Positions 31,645-51,311 of a stretch of DNA of 64,000 nt are shown here, piece after piece. Position 1 is the first letter of the stretch, and every line of letters begins with the position of its first letter. Under the pieces are notes generated by a model that was not told where the DNA came from, made no database searches, and saw nothing but the letters and a program-made list of their open reading frames with translations. The DNA lies in contig CAZWPX010000023.1 of the NCBI GenBank assembly GCA_964636125.1, forward strand, positions 1,010 to 65,009, read 5' to 3'. Source of the stretch: an uncultured Desulfobacterales bacterium. Lineage in GTDB: Bacteria > Desulfobacterota > Desulfobacteria > Desulfobacterales > CAJINA01. Both the position numbers and the translations under genes were made by a program.

Positions 31645-33146
31645 GGCCGCACCTCCAGTCCGAAGCTGGTATTAATGGCGCTGACCAGGGGGTCGAAAGC
31701 ACCGGTAATCCAGATAATGCCGATGACAAATGTTAAAACCGCGGTGGACAAAATCGGGATCAGCATACTCAGGGGAGCCTCGGCCACCGGGGGGGCCAGG
31801 GCGGCACTGCTTTCACTATCCGCCCGGATGTACATGATTTCAACAACCCGCCAGAAATAGACGATCATCAGCAGCGTACTGAAAAAAATGACCCCCACCA
31901 ACAGGTACTTCTGGGCATCCAGCGCGGCCAGGAGCAAATACCATTTGGTCACAAATCCCGCGCTGGGCGGCATCCCGATCATGGAGAGGGCGGCGAGTAT
32001 CAGCGCGAAACTGGTATAGGGCATTTTGCGGCTGAGACCCTCGAATTGCCTGATATCCACCAGGCCGGCCTTGTAGATAAACGCTCCGGCCACCATGAAC
32101 ATGCACACCTTGATGACCGCATGATTCAAGATATGCATCAGGCCCGGGGTCAGGCCAAAAGGGGTCAGGGGCGCAAGCGTGACGGCCAGGACGATATAGC
32201 CGACATTGGCAACGCTCGAATAGGCCAGCATTCGTTTAAAATCATGCTGATAGATCGCAAATATGGAGCCGGCCACGATGGCGATGGCGGCTATCGCCCG
32301 CAGGATATCGAACAGCGGCAGGAAAGTGGTGACAAACTCAAGGGTAAAGACCGAAAAAATAATGCGAACCAGCGCATAGACCAATGTCTTGGCCATAGCG
32401 CTGGAAATGATCACACTGACCGCCGAGGGTGCGTAAGTATAAGCATCCGGCTGCCAGGCGTGTAAAGGGAAAAGTGCGATTTTGATGCCGAATCCAATCA
32501 GGATGAAAACAAACGCGGCCTGGATGGCTGTCGATGTGTAAAGGGGCGGCAGTAGAACACGCAGATCTTCCATATTCAGGGATCCGGTCATGATATAAAG
32601 ATATCCTACCCCGATCAGGTAAAAACAGGCGCCGATGGTCCCGAGGATCAGATACCGGAAACTGGCCAGGGTGGCTCTCCCCTTGCCGATGGCAATGAGG
32701 GCGTAACCGCTCAGGGACACGACCTCCAGAAGCACAAAAAGGTTAAACATGTCGGCGGTGACGATGATCCCGAGCAGCCCCGTGATCAACAGAAGGTACA
32801 GGCTCCAGAACAGTGCGACCTTGTCCGGCAGTTCCGCCTCTACGGATCTTCGGCTGTAGACGGCGGCGAGCAGGGACAGGGCTGTTACCAGGATCAGCAT
32901 GCAGGCATTGAAGTGGTCTACCCGGTACTCGATCCCCCAGGGGGGCTGCCAGCCGCCCAGCAGGTACTGGATCGTCCCCTGGGCAACAACGGATTTCAAC
33001 AGGACACAGGCTGAAATAAGGCTGACCCCCAGCGCGACAAGCGCCAGCGAAAAAGCGAAACGTTTCAACCACCAGCCTGACAGGAATATCAGGAAAGATA
33101 TCAGCAGCGGGGCAATAACAACGATAACTGGTAATTGCAGGCTCAT
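31641..33146 (-). CDS. MrpD/NuoM/NuoN-family antiporter-like subunit (1st copy)
   Basis: 501 aa with HAWQPDAYTYAPSAVSVIISSAMAKTLVY and LAYSSVANVGYIVLA. Its start overlaps the stop of the cNMP-binding gene (ATGA). Confidence 0.85.
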   Translation of the reverse strand: MSLQLPVIVVIAPLLISFLIFLSGWWLKRFAFSLALVALGVSLISACVLLKSVVAQGTIQYLLGGWQPPWGIEYRVDHFNACMLILVTALSLLAAVYSRRSVEAELPDKVALFWSLYLLLITGLLGIIVTADMFNLFVLLEVVSLSGYALIAIGKGRATLASFRYLILGTIGACFYLIGVGYLYIMTGSLNMEDLRVLLPPLYTSTAIQAAFVFILIGFGIKIALFPLHAWQPDAYTYAPSAVSVIISSAMAKTLVYALVRIIFSVFTLEFVTTFLPLFDILRAIAAIAIVAGSIFAIYQHDFKRMLAYSSVANVGYIVLAVTLAPLTPFGLTPGLMHILNHAVIKVCMFMVAGAFIYKAGLVDIRQFEGLSRKMPYTSFALILAALSMIGMPPSAGFVTKWYLLLAALDAQKYLLVGVIFFSTLLMIVYFWRVVEIMYIRADSESSAALAPPVAEAPLSMLIPILSTAVLTFVIGIIWITGAFDPLVSAINTSFGLEVRP

Positions 33147-33628
33147 TCTATTTTAAACAGGCCTTTCATGTCCGGATGATGCTGTATCACTTTGAGAAAT
33201 TGCTCCGTGCGATGGTCATAGCGCTTTTTCAGGATTATCAGGAGCCTCTGGCTCAGTAAAAATCCCATCTGCGGATCCTGGGCGCACAGCTTTCTCAACT
33301 GATTGCCGCGTATGGAAAATATTTCACAGGGCTCGGTGCATACGGCGTCGGTGGTGTAGTGCCCCTCCTCGATCATGGTTGACCAGCCGAATGCATAGCC
33401 GGATTTGATGGAACCGACAGAGACGGTGACCAGTTCGGTCATAGTCTGCTCTAAAAGCACCTTGCCCCTTTTGACCATATAAAAGCGATCGGCAACATCG
33501 CCCTGCCTGAAGATGACCTCCTGATCATGGAATGACAGGACATCGACAGACGCACCTACCCGTGCGAGCATATCGTCTTCAAGATAGGTCATGATGACGA
33601 TCTCTTTTAACTCTTCAATGGGAACCAC
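33143..33628 (-). CDS. Stand-alone cyclic-nucleotide-binding (CAP effector) domain protein
   Basis: 161 aa. A strong SD (AAGAGGAGG) precedes it. The pattern VIFRQGDVADRFYMVKRGKVLLEQ...GYAFGWSTMIE...AVCTEPCEIFSIRGNQLRKL is a cNMP-binding beta-barrel plus hinge helix. No DNA-binding domain is present. Confidence 0.85.
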   Translation of the reverse strand: MVPIEELKEIVIMTYLEDDMLARVGASVDVLSFHDQEVIFRQGDVADRFYMVKRGKVLLEQTMTELVTVSVGSIKSGYAFGWSTMIEEGHYTTDAVCTEPCEIFSIRGNQLRKLCAQDPQMGFLLSQRLLIILKKRYDHRTEQFLKVIQHHPDMKGLFKIE

Positions 33629-38157: not shown

Positions 38158-38458
38158 GATGCCTTCACCTTTTCTTTTTACCTGGGGCAAAATTGGGAAT
38201 CGTTCGATATGGGTTTGAAAGGCGTGTCATGAATTCTCCACGACCTTTTCTATGCCACGATCTGTAGCACATAGTTGTAAAAATTGGAACTGCGTCACGC
38301 AACCCGCAGTTGACAAGCTCCGCTGTGCTTCAGTAACCTGTCCCGCAATAAACAGCGGTAGTGTTACCTTACAGGTCAGCTTTCAGGCTTATATTAATCC
38401 GTGGAAGCGGCAGCTATATTCTCAATTTGAAAACTTCAACACCATCAACGGAGTGATA

Positions 38459-39790
38459 ATGGCCAGGCCTGCAAAAGGATCCGCCATAAACGGCATCTTC
38501 ATCTTCCTGATTCTATCCGGTATCCTGGCGGCCCTGGCCATGGGAAACATGGAAAAGGTCACCAAGGCTTCATTTGATGCGGCCAAAACCGCAGTGGAAC
38601 TTGCCATCGGCCTGGTAGGGGCCATGGCCCTTTGGCTGGGGCTGATGAAAGTGGTCGAGCAGGCCGGTCTGCTGCTGGTCATTGCCCGGCGCCTTAAACC
38701 CGTGATGACCAGACTTTTCCCGGATGTGCCGGGCGAGCACCCGGCCATGAGCGCCATGATCATGAACATGGCCTCAAATATCATGGGCCTGGGCAACGCG
38801 GCCACGCCCTTCGGCATCAAAGCCATGGAAGAGCTGAACCGCCTGAATCCGAACAAGGGTACGGCCACCCATTCCATGTGCCTATTCCTTGCAATCAATA
38901 CCAGCAGTGTCACCCTGCTCCCCATGGGGGTGATCGCCGTGAGGGCCGGCGCCGGGGCTCTGGATCCGGCCGGCATCTTACTGCCGTCCATTTTTTCTAC
39001 CACCTGCTCAACGCTTGTGGCCATCACTGCGGCTAAAATCCTGGCCCGGGGTTCCGCTCAGAGTCCCCCGCCCCATGAGGCCGCCCGTCTGGAAGCCACG
39101 AATACCGAAAGACAGGCTGCGTTTGAATCCGACACGCCGCAAGAACCACTGACAGCGCAGGGATGGCGACGCCTCTGCCTGCCGGGTTATTTTCTGGTAT
39201 TTTCAATCGCACTGGCAACCTACCTGACCCTGCATATCACCGGTGGGGCCGGCCCGGGTGAGTTCCTCCTGAAACAACTGCCGACCTGGCTGATTCCGTT
39301 CCTCATGGGGCTGTTCGTGGTTTACGGTTTCAGCCGCAGGGTTCCGGTGTATGAAACGGTCTGTGAGGGTGCCAAAGAGGGCTTCAAGGTGGCGCTGCGC
39401 ATCATTCCCTTTCTGGTGGCCATCCTGGTGGCCATTACTGTTTTTCGTTCATCCGGCGCACTGGAGCTATTGATCACAGCCATTGAACCGGCCACCGCCC
39501 TGATCGGCATGCCGGCCGACACTCTGCCCATGGCACTGGTGCGGCCGCTTTCGGGTTCCGGCGCTTTCGGGGTAATGAGCGATATCATCAGCAGCGCGCC
39601 GGATTCGCGCTCAGCCTTTATTGCCAGTATCATGCAGGGCTCCACAGAAACGACGTTTTATGTTCTGGCAGTCTACTTCGGAGCGGTTGGCATCACCCGT
39701 GTTCGCTATGCAGTCACGGCCGCACTGCTGGCTGACCTGGCCGGTTTTCTGGCCGCGGTCTTCTGGGGCAATCTGTTCTATGCCGGTTAA
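38459..39790 (+). CDS. Nucleoside-recognition-domain membrane protein (fused SpmA/SpmB-like)
   Basis: I chose the ATG at 38459 (GGAG upstream); the 69 codons before it in the track ORF look non-coding. The first half has GLGNAATPFGIKAMEEL (SpmA-like). The second half has LVRPLSGSGAFGVMSDI...QGSTETTFYVLAVYFG (SpmB-like). Confidence 0.85.
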   Translation: MARPAKGSAINGIFIFLILSGILAALAMGNMEKVTKASFDAAKTAVELAIGLVGAMALWLGLMKVVEQAGLLLVIARRLKPVMTRLFPDVPGEHPAMSAMIMNMASNIMGLGNAATPFGIKAMEELNRLNPNKGTATHSMCLFLAINTSSVTLLPMGVIAVRAGAGALDPAGILLPSIFSTTCSTLVAITAAKILARGSAQSPPPHEAARLEATNTERQAAFESDTPQEPLTAQGWRRLCLPGYFLVFSIALATYLTLHITGGAGPGEFLLKQLPTWLIPFLMGLFVVYGFSRRVPVYETVCEGAKEGFKVALRIIPFLVAILVAITVFRSSGALELLITAIEPATALIGMPADTLPMALVRPLSGSGAFGVMSDIISSAPDSRSAFIASIMQGSTETTFYVLAVYFGAVGITRVRYAVTAALLADLAGFLAAVFWGNLFYAG

Positions 39791-39918: not shown

Positions 39919-40218
39919 ATGAAGTTATTTATCGCGGCCTTCCTGTTTTTCACCCTGGCCCCCGCGGCCCAGGCCCAGAGGGGCGACGGCAGTACCTACC
40001 GCTGCCAGAATTCTGAACTTATCCATGTCGGCGACTCAGCCTTTCTCATCAAATTGAAATGCGGACCGCCGACCCACAAAGAGGTGATTAATACCGGCTA
40101 CGGCAAAGGAGGCCAGATTGTAACGGAGTGGTACTACCCGAGGAAGAACGGCTGGTACGGCGTTCTGACGATACGCGCCGGTAAACTCATCAGAATTGGC
40201 ACCATTCAAACAAGATGA
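39919..40218 (+). CDS. Secreted DUF2845-like protein
   Basis: ATG at 39919 (GAAGAGGTG SD) and signal peptide MKLFIAAFLFFTLAPAAQA. YRCQNSELIHVGDSAFLIKLKCGPP...EWYY...LTIRAGKLIRI fits my memory of DUF2845. Confidence 0.65.
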   Translation: MKLFIAAFLFFTLAPAAQAQRGDGSTYRCQNSELIHVGDSAFLIKLKCGPPTHKEVINTGYGKGGQIVTEWYYPRKNGWYGVLTIRAGKLIRIGTIQTR

Positions 40219-40262
40219 ACAGTGAACCTGAGCCCAGCCTTTTTTTTACAGGTTACAGACCA

Positions 40263-40388
40263 TCAGCAGCAACAGGGATCCACACGGCAGCCGCAGGGGT
40301 CTACGTAGTAACAACAACAGCTGGAACTGGAAGTTTCCTCGCTGCTCTCTTCCTTGGTTTCAGTTTTTACATCTTTATCGTTGGACAT
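40263..40388 (-). CDS. Unannotated 41-aa cysteine-rich peptide (metallothionein-like or RiPP-precursor-like)
   Basis: Below the track's size cut-off. A perfect SD (AGGAGGT) lies 6 nt before the ATG at 40388. My codon-by-codon hand translation is MSNDKDVKTETKEESSEETSSSSCCCYYVDPCGCRVDPCCC*. It competes with the low-GC3 + ORF 40215..40403. Confidence 0.45.
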   Translation of the reverse strand: MSNDKDVKTETKEESSEETSSSSCCCYYVDPCGCRVDPCCC

Positions 40389-40432
40389 ATTGTTACCTCC
40401 TGAAATCGGAAAGGTTATTTTGAATTAGTTTT

Positions 40433-40495
40433 GTCATTCCGGCGCATGCCGGAATCCAGCGGTATTACTGGATACCGGATCAAGTCCGATATGAC
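40433..40495. repeat. REP/MITE-like palindromic element
   Basis: GTCATTCCGGCgcatGCCGGAATCCAG...CTGGATACCGGATCAAGTCCGATATGAC has GTCAT/ATGAC termini and an 8-bp ATTCCGGC/GCCGGAAT hairpin. It belongs to the widespread element class that yields spurious VIPA.AGIQ peptides. Confidence 0.6.
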
Positions 40496-47189: not shown

Positions 47190-50100
47190 ATGAATAAATG
47201 GTTTAAAACCGCCTTGAAAACAATGTGTGATCGCCTGGGGGCAGGCACCCGCGGCGTACCTCGGCCGGTGCCGGGCAAAGCACCGAACGCCGGGCCCAGG
47301 CAGGATTCGTTTCCCGCAGGCATTCACTTCGAGGCCCTGGAACCCCGCCTGCTGCTTTCGGCCAGCGGAGACGGCATTGTTGCGGGTGTGGCCGTCCAGG
47401 CCGCTCCTTCGTCGGAACACGCTGCCATCGAAGCGGAAAACTTTCAATTCAACCAGTTGAACCAGTCGCTATCAACCAATCTCCTGCACACAACTGAAAT
47501 CAAGGAGAGCGGCCTTTCCCAGGGCAACTCAACTCCCCAAGGGAGCAATCCGGTATCCCATCCTGCGGACGCCACCACGACAAACAATGAAAACCAACTG
47601 GTTTCGTCAATACCAGCAGAATCGGTTGACATCCTGACCAGTATAGAAAGCCATGTTCTGGATACGGTCCTCGAACGTTCTGAACTGGTGGTAATCGATG
47701 GGGGCATCCAGGACACCGATACGCTGATAAATGATCTTTTGGCTGATCGAGACGATGGCCGTACGATAGAGGTTGTGATTATAGACCCGGAACAGGACGG
47801 TTTTGAACAGGTCAGTGACCTGCTGGCCACGCGCCAGGGGCTGGATGCGGTTCATTTTGTCTCCCACGGAACGGATCGCGGTGTAAAGCTGGGTGACACG
47901 TGGCTCTATCCGGGTAATCTCGATGACTATGCGGGTGATATCGCCGGATGGAAAGATTCCCTGGCGGCGGAAGCGGATCTACTTTTTTATGGTTGTGATC
48001 TGGCCGCCGGCGAAGAGGGACAGGCCTTGCTCGCTTCTTTGGGCGAATTGACCGGTGCGGACGTTACAGCAAGCGATGATGACACCGGCCATGCGCTTTT
48101 AGGTGGAGACTGGGATCTGGAATACCGGGCAGGCGATCTCGAGACCGCTGTTGCATTCAGCGCAGAACTACAGCATCACTGGGACGGACTCCTGGCGCCC
48201 CCGACTCTCGACCTGGATGTAAACAACAGCTCAGGCGCAGGAGGTAACGATTATCAGCTCACGTATACGGAGGGAGACGTTGCCACAGCCATTGCCGACA
48301 CCGACTCCGATGTTGCCGATGCAGATTCCACCACCTTTGATCACGTGACGCTTTCAGTGAGCGGGTTGTTGGATGGCAACGCCGAGGAGATGGTGCTCGA
48401 CGGAGACACTTTTGCGCTGTCCACGGCGGTTGCAGGTCAGAACACCAGTGGTCTTAAGTACACGGTAACGGTAACAGCGGTACCGGGATCGGGCACGGCC
48501 ACGATGACGATCACCAAGCAGGGCGGTGGGACGTTTACCGAGGTCGAGACCGAAGCACTGATCGAAGAGATTAAATATCGTCATGCCGACGACAACCCGA
48601 GCGACGGCAATCGTACGATCGACATGACGGTCAACGACGGATCAGTCGACAGTGCGGCGGCGCGAACGACGATCAACGTCGATCCGGTCAACGATGCACC
48701 GACCCTGACCGTGTTTTCAGCCCCAATCAAAACGTCGTCCCAAGATGAAACGGTGACCATCACGTTTGGCGACTTGACGACTCAGGGTGATGAGGCAGAT
48801 GTGGACGGCACAGTGGATGCGTTCATCGTCAAGGCGGTATCGAGCGGCACACTGTTGATCGGCGCATCTAAGGGCTCTGCCGCAGCTTGGGCGGCCGGAA
48901 CCAACGACACAATCAGTGGTTTGGATAAAGGGTTCTGGACGCCAGTCAGCGGTGCTACGGGTACGCTAAATGCCTTTACGATGGTTGTCGAGGACAACTC
49001 GGGAGCCGAATCGGCCACCCCAGTTCAGGCGCAGGTATCGGTCACGGCCAATAATGTACCGACGCTGACGGCGTTTGCGGCTCCCATCGATACGACGGCC
49101 GAGGACACACAGGTAGATATCACGTTTGCCGAACTGGTGGCCCAGGGTGATGAGGCGGATGTTGACGGTACGGTGGACGGTTTTGTGGTCAAGGCGGTCA
49201 CGAGTGGCACGCTTTTAATTGGTACGGATGCGGGTAGTGCAACGATCTGGGCAGCGGGCAGCAACGATACAATCGATGCGGCAAACAATGCTTACTGGAC
49301 GCCGGATAGTGATGCGAACGGGACGCTGAATGCTTTTACAGCTGTGGCCTTGGACAACTCGGGAGCCGAATCAGCCACTCCGGTTCAGGCGCAGATAACG
49401 GTGACCGCGGTCAACGATGCGCCCACCGCGACGAACCTGAGTGCCCCGGAGAGCTACACCGAGGACACGGCGCTCAATCTGACCGACATCGTGGTCACTG
49501 ATGTGGACAGTGCCACTGTCACGGTGACCCTGACCTTGTCGGATCCGGCGGCCGGCTCCCTGAGCACCGGCACATCCGGTGCGGTGACCTCGACCTTTGC
49601 GGCCGGGGTGTGGACCGCCTCGGGCGCCCTTGCCGATGTCAACACCCTGCTGGCCGGCGTCACCTTCACCCCGGCGATCAACTACAACAGCAACTTTAAC
49701 ATCGCCACCGGCGTCTCTGACGGTGCGGCCCCGGCGATCACCGGCACCAAGGTCATGACCGGCGCCGCGGTCAACGATGCGCCCACCGCGACGAACCTGA
49801 GTGCCCCGGAGAGCTACACCGAGGACACGGCGCTCAATCTGACCGACATCGTGGTCACTGATGTGGACAGTGCCACTGTCACGGTGACCCTGACCTTGTC
49901 GGATCCGGCGGCCGGCTCCCTGAGCACCGGCACATCCGGTGCGGTGACCTCGACCTTTGCGGCCGGGGTGTGGACCGCCTCGGGCGCCCTTGCCGATGTC
50001 AACACCCTGCTGGCCGGCGTCACCTTCACCCCGGCGATCAACTACAACAGCAACTTTAACATCGCCACCGGCGTCTCTGACGGTGCGGCCCCGGCGATCA

Positions 50101-51311
50101 CCGGCACCAAGGTCATGACCGGCGCCGCGGTCAACGATGCGCCCACCGCGACGAACCTGAGTGCCCCGGAGAGCTACACCGAGGACACGGCGCTCAATCT
50201 GACCGACATCGTGGTCACTGATGTGGACAGTGCCACTGTCACGGTGACCCTGACCTTGTCGGATCCGGCGGCCGGCTCCCTGAGCACCGGCACATCCGGT
50301 GCGGTGACCTCGACCTTTGCGGCCGGGGTGTGGACCGCCTCGGGCGCCCTTGCCGATGTCAACACCCTGCTGGCCGGCGTCACCTTCACCCCAACCGGGG
50401 GCTACGCCGGTGACTTTACCATCGCCACAAGTGCGAACGACGGCACGGCACCGGTGGTGACGGGAGTAAAAAATGTGTCCCTGGCAGCCGCTGCCGATCC
50501 AACGCCGCCGACGCTCCCTGCGGAAGACAATGATCCAGATCCGGTAACTCCGCCCGAGCCCGATCCAGAGACACCTGAAGACGAATCCGCACCCGCGGAC
50601 GTCGCAGAAGAGGCTCCTGCCGAGGCCGAAGCCGAGGCCTTGAATGAAGATGATTCGGGTGATACCGTAACGGCGGTTCCACCGACAGCCGCCGGAGCCG
50701 TGTCTTCACAACAGCGGCTTGCCTCGAACACGCTGCGTGGATTTATACAACGGTCCCTCCGGGGCCTGAGCCTTGAACAGGTTGCGGAGATCGACCTCAA
50801 AGAACTCCGGGAAATGACGGCCGAGACCCAACCGGCCTGGTCTGTTGCCCAGACCCGGGCAGCATCAATGACCTTTGGTACCCGGCTGACTGATTTGGGC
50901 ATTCGGACAGTTCTCGCATTCGATTTCCTGGAAAACTCGCTGGACGGGCTCCAACAAGAAGCAGAGGAAGAGATCGCGCTCAACCAGGTGGTTGCAAGTT
51001 CCGCCATTGCCGTAACGACAGGCCTGTCCGTGGGGTATGTGGCCTGGCTGCTGCGAAGCGGCGTGCTGCTCAGTTCTTTGCTGTCTTCCATGCCGGCCTG
51101 GCGGATTCTGGATCCGTTGCCTGTGCTTGCAGGAAAACTGGACGATTTCGAGGAGACGGACGAAGAATCCCTGGAGACCATCATCGAGCGGCCGTCGCCG
51201 CCTTCCGCCGATGACGACCCGAATGATGCATCTGCCTCTGTGGACGTTGCGGACGAAGTCGTGAAGGACGTGAAAGACGTGAAAGACGTGAAAGACGTGA
51301 AGGAAACGTAA
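47190..51311 (+). CDS. Giant repeat protein: N-terminal LEPR-XLL motif, DUF4347, cadherin-like repeats, acidic/Pro-rich linker, C-terminal TM segment
   Basis: FEALEPRLLLSA lies at 47328..47363. The DUF4347-like block runs ELVVIDGGIQD...DAVHFVSHG...LLFYGCDLAAGEEGQALL...GADVTASDDDTGH..LGGDWDLEY. Repeats of ~120 aa are bounded by VNDAPT. The segment SAIAVTTGLSVGYVAWLLRSGVLLSSLLSSMPAW is hydrophobic. No RTX GGxGxD array was seen. Confidence 0.9.
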   Translation: MNKWFKTALKTMCDRLGAGTRGVPRPVPGKAPNAGPRQDSFPAGIHFEALEPRLLLSASGDGIVAGVAVQAAPSSEHAAIEAENFQFNQLNQSLSTNLLHTTEIKESGLSQGNSTPQGSNPVSHPADATTTNNENQLVSSIPAESVDILTSIESHVLDTVLERSELVVIDGGIQDTDTLINDLLADRDDGRTIEVVIIDPEQDGFEQVSDLLATRQGLDAVHFVSHGTDRGVKLGDTWLYPGNLDDYAGDIAGWKDSLAAEADLLFYGCDLAAGEEGQALLASLGELTGADVTASDDDTGHALLGGDWDLEYRAGDLETAVAFSAELQHHWDGLLAPPTLDLDVNNSSGAGGNDYQLTYTEGDVATAIADTDSDVADADSTTFDHVTLSVSGLLDGNAEEMVLDGDTFALSTAVAGQNTSGLKYTVTVTAVPGSGTATMTITKQGGGTFTEVETEALIEEIKYRHADDNPSDGNRTIDMTVNDGSVDSAAARTTINVDPVNDAPTLTVFSAPIKTSSQDETVTITFGDLTTQGDEADVDGTVDAFIVKAVSSGTLLIGASKGSAAAWAAGTNDTISGLDKGFWTPVSGATGTLNAFTMVVEDNSGAESATPVQAQVSVTANNVPTLTAFAAPIDTTAEDTQVDITFAELVAQGDEADVDGTVDGFVVKAVTSGTLLIGTDAGSATIWAAGSNDTIDAANNAYWTPDSDANGTLNAFTAVALDNSGAESATPVQAQITVTAVNDAPTATNLSAPESYTEDTALNLTDIVVTDVDSATVTVTLTLSDPAAGSLSTGTSGAVTSTFAAGVWTASGALADVNTLLAGVTFTPAINYNSNFNIATGVSDGAAPAITGTKVMTGAAVNDAPTATNLSAPESYTEDTALNLTDIVVTDVDSATVTVTLTLSDPAAGSLSTGTSGAVTSTFAAGVWTASGALADVNTLLAGVTFTPAINYNSNFNIATGVSDGAAPAITGTKVMTGAAVNDAPTATNLSAPESYTEDTALNLTDIVVTDVDSATVTVTLTLSDPAAGSLSTGTSGAVTSTFAAGVWTASGALADVNTLLAGVTFTPTGGYAGDFTIATSANDGTAPVVTGVKNVSLAAAADPTPPTLPAEDNDPDPVTPPEPDPETPEDESAPADVAEEAPAEAEAEALNEDDSGDTVTAVPPTAAGAVSSQQRLASNTLRGFIQRSLRGLSLEQVAEIDLKELREMTAETQPAWSVAQTRAASMTFGTRLTDLGIRTVLAFDFLENSLDGLQQEAEEEIALNQVVASSAIAVTTGLSVGYVAWLLRSGVLLSSLLSSMPAWRILDPLPVLAGKLDDFEETDEESLETIIERPSPPSADDDPNDASASVDVADEVVKDVKDVKDVKDVKET
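49405..50392 (+). repeat. 2.7 copies of a 100%-identical 360-bp (120-aa) tandem repeat
   Basis: A line-by-line comparison shows 49405-49764 equals 49765-50124, which equals 50125-50392 (a partial third unit). Two older, diverged ~120-aa units precede it (~48700-49400). Confidence 0.95.
51261..51305 (+). repeat. 9-bp microsatellite (gtgaaRgac)x5 encoding (VKD)n at the C-terminus of the giant protein
   Basis: gtgaaggac gtgaaagac gtgaaagac gtgaaagac gtgaaggaa. Confidence 0.9.

What the first reader, a model, noticed from the sequence alone, without database searches (positions are those of the whole stretch)
40263..40388. Hidden 41-aa cysteine-rich peptide gene with a perfect Shine-Dalgarno
On the minus strand, AGGAGGT lies 6 nt upstream of an ATG that opens MSNDKDVKTETKEESSEETSSSSCCCYYVDPCGCRVDPCCC. 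The N-terminal 23 aa are acidic and Ser-rich. The following 18-aa tail contains 9 Cys and a duplicated VDPC(G/C)C unit. It falls below the ORF-track threshold and is masked by a + strand ORF whose third-codon positions are mostly A/T, unlike the genes in this window I read through. It could be a metal- or metalloid-binding peptide (metallothionein-like) or a leader-core RiPP precursor. No maturase is adjacent, which favours the first idea.
Basis: partly seen in the sequence, partly recalled or inferred. Interest (0 to 1): 0.55.

Follow-up and report, generated by a model that had tools for sequence, protein, structure and literature searches.

The report
Conserved cysteine-repeat small protein gene
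The 41-residue cysteine-rich ORF is a real, conserved gene from a previously undescribed family of tiny tandem-repeat proteins found almost only in Desulfobacterales sulfate reducers; it most likely binds soft metals such as copper the way a metallothionein does, but that function is inferred and untested.

Summary
The ORF at 40263..40388 (-) and its AGGAGGT Shine-Dalgarno are exactly as described, except that the tail has 8 Cys, not 9. It is a real gene. Syntenic relatives keep the frame with pN/pS of 0.08-0.20 while the flanking intergenic DNA is unalignable. The overlapping + strand ORF is an unselected shadow (pN/pS 0.75-1.7). The peptide belongs to an unnamed family: 272 clusters, all 'hypothetical', with no Pfam, NCBIfam or PDB match and no mention of the motif in the paper library. 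Of 48 motif hits in species-representative genomes, nearly all are Desulfobacterales. Members are 41-68 aa, with a disordered K/E/S/D-rich N-part and 1-4 tandem [Y/V]-V-D-P-C-[G/C]-C units, and most end in CCC. Most loci have an extended SD, and many have a terminator directly after the stop. No neighbour is conserved across 53 loci, so no maturase travels with the gene. One clade sits beside CopA-type copper ATPases, HMA proteins or an ArsP-type permease. The best reading is a cytoplasmic metallothionein-like soft-metal (probably Cu(I)) buffer, at about 45 % confidence. A RiPP precursor with an unlinked maturase, or another thiol role, remains possible.

The parts
40263..40388 (-). Small-protein gene (41 codons plus TGA): MSNDKDVKTETKEESSEETSSSSCCCYYVDPCGCRVDPCCC
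   Evidence: The identical peptide is called in three other assemblies. Syntenic orthologues are P0001/L001, P0002/L003 and L036. pN/pS is 0.08-0.20, and 15-19 of 21-28 differences fall at codon position 3.
40320..40388 (-). N-terminal part (residues 1-23): acidic, Ser-rich and hydrophilic, with no signal peptide or hydrophobic stretch; probably a disordered tail
   Evidence: Family statistics: the N-part is about 25 aa, 62 % K/E/S/D, with net charge ranging from -6 to +7 across members. AF2 pLDDT is below 50 for residues 1-3 and 14-20.
40266..40319 (-). Cys-rich core (residues 24-41): CCC-YYVDPCGC-RVDPCCC. This is one full heptad unit plus the terminal VDPCCC unit and holds 8 Cys.
   Evidence: The unit consensus is [Y/V]-V-D-P-C-[G/C]-C, and 83 of 120 members end in CCC.
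40395..40401 (-). Shine-Dalgarno AGGAGGT, 6 nt before the ATG
   Evidence: GGAGGT is invariant in alignment A1. Most family members have the extended form GGAGGTGAT.
40408..40418 (-). Conserved 5' leader element ATAACCTTTCC just upstream of the SD, of unknown role. It is the only upstream stretch that stays conserved among the window, L001, L003 and L036.
   Evidence: Alignment A1 has invariant columns AACCTTTCC. The upstream sequences are listed.
40436..40473 (-). Two adjacent inverted repeats in the divergent promoter region (ATCCAG-N8-CTGGAT and ATTCCGGC-ATGC-GCCGGAAT). They are species-specific and could be an operator or a leader hairpin.
   Evidence: Read directly. Present in L004 (99.9 % identical) and absent in L001, L003 and L036.
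40219..40262 (.). 44-nt spacer between the convergent peptide gene and the DUF2845 gene. It holds only a weak hairpin, whereas many relatives carry a strong intrinsic terminator in this position.
   Evidence: folds: L001, L003 and L036 have a GC-rich hairpin plus T-run, and the window has lost the right arm.
40215..40403 (+). Shadow ORF (62 aa) in exact antisense codon register; not a gene
   Evidence: read in this frame, pN/pS is 0.75-1.68 and amino-acid identity is 49-63 % in the five divergent pairs, against 83-88 % on the sense strand. It has no equivalent start codon in L001. It has no family hit.

Best explanation
Shown: 40263..40388 (-) is a real protein-coding gene under strong purifying selection. 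It stands alone behind a strong ribosome-binding site, with divergent and convergent neighbours. It belongs to an unnamed family restricted almost entirely to Desulfobacterales. Members have a variable, charged, probably disordered N-terminal tail of about 25 residues. This is followed by 1-4 tandem heptads [Y/V]-V-D-P-C-[G/C]-C, and most end in CCC. The window's copy is the shortest known, with one full heptad plus the terminal unit. Inferred: the peptide stays in the cytoplasm, since it has no signal peptide or hydrophobic segment. There it would act like a metallothionein. The C-G-C and CCC thiolates, unstructured when metal-free, would wrap soft metal ions (Cu(I) the leading candidate; Zn, Cd, Ni or As(III) are not excluded) into metal-thiolate clusters, buffering or sequestering them. 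The number of heptads would set the capacity, and the hydrophilic tail would keep the Cys-rich part soluble. The gene being real is near certain (about 0.97). The confidence given below is for the metallothionein-like mechanism.
For: Gene reality: two syntenic orthologues carry one extra YYVDPCGC unit each, inserted in frame. The ORF and SD are conserved while the flanks are unalignable. dN/dS is about 0.08 with synonymous sites near saturation, and the antisense frame is unselected. Family: the exhaustive HMMER search found 15 clusters at 50 % identity, and the profile search found 272 clusters at 90 % identity. The DNA motif scan gave 48 hits in GTDB species representatives against about 0.5 expected, nearly all Desulfobacterales, including Desulfosarcina widdelii PP31 and the Olavius algarvensis Delta 4 symbiont. 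Composition: the core is 35 % Cys with CGC, CC and CCC motifs, and members carry 5-12 Cys. Stand-alone unit: most loci have the extended SD GGAGGTGAT and many have an intrinsic terminator right after the stop. No neighbour family is shared by more than 8 of 53 loci. No fold: AF2 on an 87-sequence alignment gave pLDDT 56.7 and pTM 0.17; metallothioneins are reported to fold only on metal binding (PMC7558416). Metal link: in one clade of 10 genomes, 6 have a soft-metal transport gene within about 1.2 kb, in several arrangements. CopA-type P1B ATPase is convergent in L030, L046 and L061 and co-directional in L032. L033 has two HMA proteins upstream. L052 has an ArsP_1 permease downstream. Precedent: MymT of M. 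tuberculosis was likewise a small non-annotated ORF encoding a 4.9-kDa Cys-rich Cu(I)-binding protein (PMC7558416).
Against: No member matches any Pfam metallothionein family, any NCBIfam family or any PDB chain. Every unit has a conserved Tyr, whereas classical metallothioneins are poor in aromatic residues (established knowledge). The conservation of Y, V, D and P suggests more than simple thiolate density. The metal-gene neighbours occur in a single clade, so they amount to roughly one evolutionary event, and I would have accepted many kinds of metal gene as a hit, which makes the statistical weight small. The window's own locus has no metal-related neighbour (NUDIX, DUF2845, Gate protein, sensor kinase). 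No metal-sensing regulator or operator was identified. There are no expression or binding data.
Confidence: 0.45

Rival explanations
1. RiPP precursor. The hydrophilic N-part would be a leader and the Cys/Asp-rich repeats a core, modified by a maturase encoded elsewhere in the genome (for example radical-SAM thioether formation between Cys and Asp, as in ranthipeptides, or another Cys-directed chemistry).
For: The layout is bipartite, with a variable N-part and a conserved Cys-rich C-part. There is a weakly conserved N-terminal D-K-D-I-K-K motif. Each unit pairs Asp with Cys. One locus (L057) has a B12-binding radical-SAM gene 71 nt downstream on the same strand.
Against: No maturase, protease or exporter recurs next to the gene in 53 loci. 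The L057 enzyme is absent from the closest relative's locus (L010/L025). The only other radical-SAM neighbour (L018) is convergent and only 24 % identical. That is about what chance would give if, as I recall, these genomes encode many radical-SAM genes. N-part charge swings from -6 to +7, and paralogues within one genome have acidic versus basic tails, which is unlike a leader read by a recognition domain. No leader-core cleavage motif was evident. No NCBIfam precursor family is hit by any of 16 members.
Confidence: 0.15
2. A thiol-chemistry role other than metal buffering. Candidates include a carrier or sink for sulfane sulfur or persulfide, a redox buffer, or a scaffold for an Fe-S or other metal-sulfur cofactor specific to sulfate-reducer physiology.
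For: The family is restricted to Desulfobacterales, which are sulfate reducers (established knowledge). It has a very high density of adjacent thiols, with CCC at the extreme C-terminus in 83 of 120 members. Redox-related neighbours occur here and there, such as a ferredoxin-thioredoxin-reductase-like protein in L032 and a pyridine-nucleotide-disulfide oxidoreductase in L033.
Against: No sulfur-trafficking protein family (DsrC/TusA/DsrE) turned up among the neighbours examined. The redox neighbours are single cases. Nothing in the sequence distinguishes this role from metal binding.
Confidence: 0.2
3. Cysteine-sensing leader peptide. Ribosome stalling at the Cys codons would control read-through of the terminator into downstream genes (attenuation).
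For: There are runs of Cys codons, and many loci have a terminator hairpin directly after the ORF.
Against: In the window the next gene is convergent (DUF2845, + strand). Across the family, the nearest downstream gene is on the opposite strand in 29 of 47 loci. Non-Cys residues (Y, V, D, P, G) are as conserved as Cys, so selection acts on the peptide and not only on codon content.
Confidence: 0.02
4. The + strand ORF 40215..40403 is the real gene, or neither ORF is.
For: It is longer (62 aa), starts with an ATG that overlaps the DUF2845 stop codon (ATGA), and would encode a hydrophobic stretch.
Against: Read in that frame, pN/pS is 0.75-1.68 and identity is 49-63 % in the five divergent pairs. 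It has no start codon in L001 and no family hit. It stays open only because the sense codons used lack TTA, CTA and TCA.
Confidence: 0.01

Closest known systems
MymT, the mycobacterial Cu(I) metallothionein (Gold et al. 2008, as summarised in PMC7558416)
   Same: A small (about 5 kDa), Cys-rich, cytoplasmic bacterial peptide. It is encoded by a short stand-alone ORF that annotation originally missed and is lineage-restricted. From my memory of the MymT sequence, not checked here, it also has CxC-type motifs.
   Different: No sequence relationship was detected by any search. MymT is not built of tandem repeats and has no long charged tail (my memory of the sequence, not checked here). Cu binding and Cu induction are demonstrated for MymT and untested here.
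SmtA/BmtA bacterial metallothioneins (Pfam PF02069; PDB 1JJD, cited in PMC7558416)
   Same: Small bacterial Cys-rich proteins that bind several metal ions in a thiolate cluster.
   Different: SmtA has a zinc-finger-like fold and uses His as well as Cys (PMC7558416; the His ligands are from my own knowledge). Here there is no Pfam hit for any of 16 members, no PDB hit and no confident fold. His is essentially absent from the core.
Eukaryotic Cu-metallothioneins and phytochelatins (modular thiolate peptides)
   Same: They use repeated short Cys-containing units whose number scales metal capacity, have CxC and CC motifs, and are disordered without metal (established knowledge).
   Different: Phytochelatins are made enzymatically and are not gene-encoded. 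Eukaryotic MTs lack the Y-V-D-P scaffold residues and the charged tail. There is no homology.
Ranthipeptide and SCIFF-type radical-SAM RiPP precursors
   Same: Short precursors with a Cys-rich C-terminal core. In ranthipeptides, Cys is cross-linked to Asp or other residues (established knowledge).
   Different: Those precursors are encoded next to their radical-SAM maturase (established knowledge). Here no maturase is linked in 53 loci, and no precursor HMM matches.

Membership tests
Metallothionein (functional superfamily) | Low molecular weight (<10 kDa) | tested here: met
   41 aa in the window and 41-68 aa across the family.
Metallothionein (functional superfamily) | High Cys content arranged as CxC, CC or CxxC motifs | tested here: met
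   8 of 41 residues are Cys (44 % of the 18-aa core). The family core is 35 % Cys, with CGC, CC and CCC motifs.
Metallothionein (functional superfamily) | Forms metal-thiolate clusters binding several metal ions | not testable with these tools
   This needs metal titration with ESI-MS or spectroscopy on the peptide.
Metallothionein (functional superfamily) | Few or no aromatic residues (classical criterion) | tested here: not met
   Tyr (or Phe) is conserved at the first position of most units and makes up 11.5 % of the core.
Metallothionein (functional superfamily) | Little structure without metal | tested here: inconclusive
   AF2 gave pLDDT 56.7 and pTM 0.17 with an 87-sequence alignment. 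This is consistent with disorder but is not proof.
Known metallothionein sequence families (Pfam, including PF02069 SmtA/BmtA) | Significant match to the family HMM | tested here: not met
   None of 16 diverse members hit any metallothionein model at E <= 1. There is no PDB match.
RiPP precursor peptides | Encoded next to its maturase, protease or exporter | tested here: not met
   No neighbour family is shared by more than 8 of 53 loci, and those 8 form one clade with a proton-antiporter-type subunit. Radical SAM appears in 2 loci, one of them convergent and unrelated.
RiPP precursor peptides | Conserved leader recognition motif and leader-core cleavage site | tested here: inconclusive
   There is a weak N-terminal D-K-D-I-K-K preference, but the N-part is otherwise low-complexity with net charge -6 to +7, and no cleavage motif was evident.
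RiPP precursor peptides | Match to a described precursor family | tested here: not met
   NCBIfam gave 0 families for 16 members at E <= 1.
RiPP precursor peptides | Mature product is post-translationally modified | not testable with these tools
   This needs mass spectrometry of the native peptide.
Amino-acid-sensing leader peptide (attenuator) | A co-directional regulated gene downstream of the terminator | tested here: not met
   The neighbour is convergent in the window. The nearest downstream gene is on the opposite strand in 29 of 47 loci.

The most novel reading that the evidence does not exclude
The tandem Y-V-D-P-C-G-C heptads are not a generic metal sponge. On this reading they are a new kind of genetically encoded repeat scaffold specific to Desulfobacterales. 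One possibility is the precursor of a modified thiol or thioether natural product made by an unlinked enzyme. Another is an ordered peptide-metal-sulfur assembly in which Tyr, Val, Asp and Pro position cysteines from successive repeats around a defined multinuclear cluster used in sulfate-reducer metabolism.
Probability: 0.12. Interest if true: 0.75.

Novelty: new variant of a known kind. Interest (0 to 1): 0.5.

Why it matters
Characterised bacterial metallothioneins are few, and I found none reported from Desulfobacterales in the paper library. This family is absent from Pfam and NCBIfam and is labelled 'hypothetical' or left unnamed in every source, yet it is widespread in an environmentally dominant order of marine sulfate reducers and in gutless-worm symbionts. 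If it binds copper or other thiophilic metals, it would reveal how sulfide-producing anaerobes buffer cytoplasmic soft metals. It would also provide a compact modular metal-binding repeat. Because one carrier (Desulfosarcina widdelii PP31) is cultured, the question can be tested directly. The case also shows that length-threshold ORF tracks and shadow ORFs hide real small genes.

Tried and rejected
1. A sigma-54 promoter as a family-wide feature. Some clades show GG-N10-GC-like elements, but a strict scan of 45 upstream regions was no better than the antisense control, so this was rejected.
2. A sigma-70 consensus promoter upstream of the gene. None was found on the minus strand between 40400 and 40600.
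3. Rfam. There were no hits in the whole window.
It was replaced by an explicit degenerate DNA pattern.
5. Radical-SAM adjacency as evidence for a RiPP. It occurs in only 2 of 53 loci, the two enzymes are unrelated and one is convergent, so I treated it as chance.
6. CopA adjacency as independent multi-clade evidence. All cases fall in one peptide clade, so this was downgraded to a weak hint. L020's large neighbour turned out to be glycogen phosphorylase.
7. A second copy in the window. None was found.
8. Structure-based search. It was not run because the AF2 model is low-confidence.
9. Literature. The motif VDPCGC appears in no paper, 'metallothionein' plus 'Desulfobacterales' gave no paper, and the other searches gave nothing relevant.
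10. The attenuator idea was rejected on gene orientation.

Full report
OBSERVATION. Reading the minus strand shows AGGAGGT at 40395..40401, a 6-nt spacer, ATG at 40388 and TGA at 40263..40265. The product is MSNDKDVKTETKEESSEETSSSSCCCYYVDPCGCRVDPCCC (41 aa), and the ORF list confirms it. The ORF list also shows the overlapping + strand ORF 40215..40403. The only error in the finding is the Cys count: the 18-aa tail has 8 cysteines, not 9. The density is not a chance product of composition. In 100 simulated windows with the same dinucleotide frequencies, no open stretch had 8 Cys in 18 residues, and 7 was reached in only 2 of 100.

IS IT A GENE? Yes.
- A word-indexed search found two relatives. 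Both keep the motif, and each has one extra YYVDPCGC or YVDPCGC unit inserted in frame.
- Their contigs are syntenic with the window: hybrid kinase, NUDIX, peptide, DUF2845, Gate-domain membrane protein, cpYpsA, Mrp antiporter (window annotation).
- In the DNA alignment, the intergenic flanks are diverged beyond alignment. The SD, a short ATAACCTTTCC element and the ORF remain conserved.
- Within the ORF, 15-19 of 21-28 differences fall at codon position 3. Synonymous sites are near saturation (pS 0.58-0.82) while pN is about 0.08, giving dN/dS of about 0.08.
- With the Olavius algarvensis Delta 4 symbiont orthologue (L036) added, sense-frame pN/pS is 0.08-0.20. The same columns read in the antisense register give 0.75-1.68, with only 49-63 % amino-acid identity in the five divergent pairs. 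The antisense ORF also has no start codon in L001.
- The + strand ORF is therefore a shadow, kept open because the sense codons lack TTA, CTA and TCA.
- The surrounding genes are 70-76 % identical in DNA between the window and L001/L036, so these are different species of one lineage.

THE FAMILY.
- An exhaustive HMMER scan of 1.84 billion representatives found 15 clusters at E < 1e-3.
- A profile of 16 members (A2) then found 272 clusters at 90 % identity. Every one is unnamed or 'hypothetical protein', and none has a Pfam domain. The few with an organism name are Deltaproteobacteria, Thermodesulfobacteriota or Desulfobacterales MAGs.
- A degenerate DNA pattern for D-P-C-G-C-x-V-D-P-C was run over one genome per GTDB species and gave 48 matches, against about 0.5 expected from its information content. 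All but one carry Desulfobacterales, Desulfobacteraceae, Desulfosarcina, Thermodesulfobacteriota or 'delta proteobacterium' labels; the exception is labelled Pseudomonadota. The hits include the cultured Desulfosarcina widdelii PP31 and the Delta 4 symbiont.
- Nearly all matches lie in 47-59-aa ORFs behind a strong SD, commonly GGAGGTGAT, which is a 9-nt complement to the 16S 3' end.
- In 120 members, length is 41-68 aa (median 50), so the window's copy is the shortest.
- The N-part is about 25 aa and 62 % K/E/S/D, with net charge from -6 to +7.
- The core is 35 % Cys, and the rest is mostly V, Y, D, P and G.
- The unit is [Y/V]-V-D-P-C-[G/C]-C, present 1-4 times, and 83 of 120 members end in CCC.
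- Two genomes carry two paralogues, one with an acidic tail and one with a basic tail.

KNOWN FAMILIES.
- Neither the window peptide nor any of 16 diverse members hits a Pfam metallothionein family or any NCBIfam family at E <= 1.
- A profile search of all PDB sequences found nothing significant.
- The motif does not occur in the paper library, and no paper combines 'metallothionein' with 'Desulfobacterales'.
- AlphaFold2 with an 87-sequence alignment gave no confident fold (pLDDT 56.7, pTM 0.17), so no fold search was run.

CONTEXT.
- The gene is a self-contained unit. In the window it is divergent from NUDIX and convergent with DUF2845. In many relatives a GC-rich hairpin with a T-run follows the stop codon within 10-30 nt. 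The window's own terminator is degraded.
- Clustering all flanking ORFs from 53 loci found no family shared by more than 8 loci. Those 8 are a single clade with proton-antiporter-type subunit genes upstream.
- A Pfam scan of the 91 nearest neighbours gave the same answer.
- Radical-SAM/B12 proteins occur twice. One is operon-like (L057) but absent from the closest relative's locus. The other is convergent and only 24 % identical. I regard this as chance.
- The one functional theme is soft-metal transport in one clade of 10 genomes (N-terminus MSD[DHN][TI]KSE). A CopA-type P1B ATPase with HMA domains is convergent in L030, L046 and L061 and co-directional in L032. L033 has two HMA proteins plus RseC upstream. 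L052 has an ArsP_1 permease downstream.
- These arrangements differ, but they lie within one clade, and many kinds of metal gene would have counted as a hit. I therefore treat this as a modest hint. The window's own locus has no such neighbour.

MECHANISM. Shown: this is a conserved, strongly initiated, stand-alone small protein with a disordered charged tail and tandem Cys heptads. Inferred: it is cytoplasmic and acts as a metallothionein-like thiolate-cluster peptide that buffers thiophilic metals. Cu(I) is the leading candidate because of the CopA/HMA neighbours. There is also the precedent of MymT, a 4.9-kDa Cys-rich Cu(I)-binding protein found as a non-annotated ORF in M. tuberculosis (PMC7558416). 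The same review notes that metallothioneins fold only on metal binding, which fits the lack of a predicted fold. Repeat number would scale capacity. Points against: there is no homology to known metallothioneins. An aromatic residue is conserved in each unit. Y, V, D and P are also conserved, which hints at a more specific architecture. I give this mechanism about 0.45.

RIVALS.
- A RiPP precursor with an unlinked maturase (about 0.15) is not excluded. The bipartite layout, the weak DKDIKK motif and the Asp/Cys pairing fit it. The lack of any linked enzyme in 53 loci, the highly variable tail charge and the absence of a cleavage motif argue against it.
- A non-metal thiol role such as a persulfide carrier, a redox buffer or an Fe-S scaffold (about 0.2) cannot be separated from metal binding by sequence alone.
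- A Cys-sensing attenuator is contradicted by gene orientation: the nearest downstream gene is on the opposite strand in 29 of 47 loci, and the neighbour is convergent in the window. It is also contradicted by selection on non-Cys residues.
- The + strand ORF is rejected.

NOVELTY AND VERDICT. The gene is real, and its family is undescribed in Pfam, NCBIfam, the PDB and the searchable literature. By composition it is best filed as a new, non-homologous variant of the metallothionein kind, with function untested. It is moderately interesting. It is a lineage-specific tandem-heptad Cys peptide in an ecologically important order, and it is directly testable in a cultured carrier, but it does not overturn anything known. 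Interest 0.5.

Noticed in passing
window 40436..40473 (-): Two adjacent inverted repeats lie about 48-85 nt upstream of the peptide ATG: ATCCAG-N8-CTGGAT, then the perfect palindrome ATTCCGGC-ATGC-GCCGGAAT. They are present in the same-species contig L004 and absent from L001, L003 and L036. They could be an operator in the divergent NUDIX/peptide promoter region or a leader hairpin.
   Followed up: partly
window 47190..51311 (+): A 1373-aa ORF contains three identical tandem copies of a roughly 117-aa unit (VNDAPTATNLSAPESYTEDTALNLTDIVVTDVDSATVTVTLTLSDPAAG...). It has a Pro/Asp/Glu-rich region near the C-terminus and ends in DVK repeats. This is visible in the translation.
   Followed up: no
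L052 1559..2704 (+): An ArsP_1-family permease gene next to the peptide is split into 65-aa and 313-aa ORFs by a single in-frame stop. This may be a selenocysteine codon. A paper in the library reports unusually large selenoproteomes in a deltaproteobacterial symbiont of Olavius algarvensis (PMC1976440).
   Followed up: no
L014, L017, L029, L048, L050, L058: about 15-60 nt upstream of the peptide ATG: A clade-specific conserved inverted repeat, (A/G)TGAATTC-N~25-GAATTCA(T/C), lies just upstream of the SD. RNAalifold gives 10 pairs, but only 2 show double changes. An RNA hairpin cannot be told from a protein-binding palindrome.
   Followed up: partly
L019, L026, L028, L031, L034, L047 (about 95 nt upstream of the ATG); L023 (D. 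widdelii): There are sigma-54-like -24/-12 elements: GGCACGACAATTGTA in one clade and TGGCATGGCAATTGCG in D. widdelii. L021 has a sigma-54 activator gene as the divergent neighbour. A strict family-wide scan showed no enrichment over the antisense control.
   Followed up: partly
L014/L017 (one MAG) and L048/L055 (another MAG): Two genomes carry two paralogues of the peptide, one with an acidic N-part and one with a strongly basic N-part (...KKDSKKKRDRSKS...). This suggests the tail is tuned for charge rather than for a specific sequence.
   Followed up: no
window 38252..39790 (+); L001, L036, L046, L061: A two-Gate-domain (PF07670) membrane protein lies within 3.5 kb of the peptide in two different peptide clades, in different orientations. 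This could be residual synteny or a functional link. It is unresolved.
   Followed up: no
window 33143..33628 (-); L001 10756..11235: A cNMP-binding-domain protein gene is embedded inside the Mrp-type antiporter operon, between the MnhC-like and MnhD-like subunit genes. The arrangement is conserved in L001.
   Followed up: no
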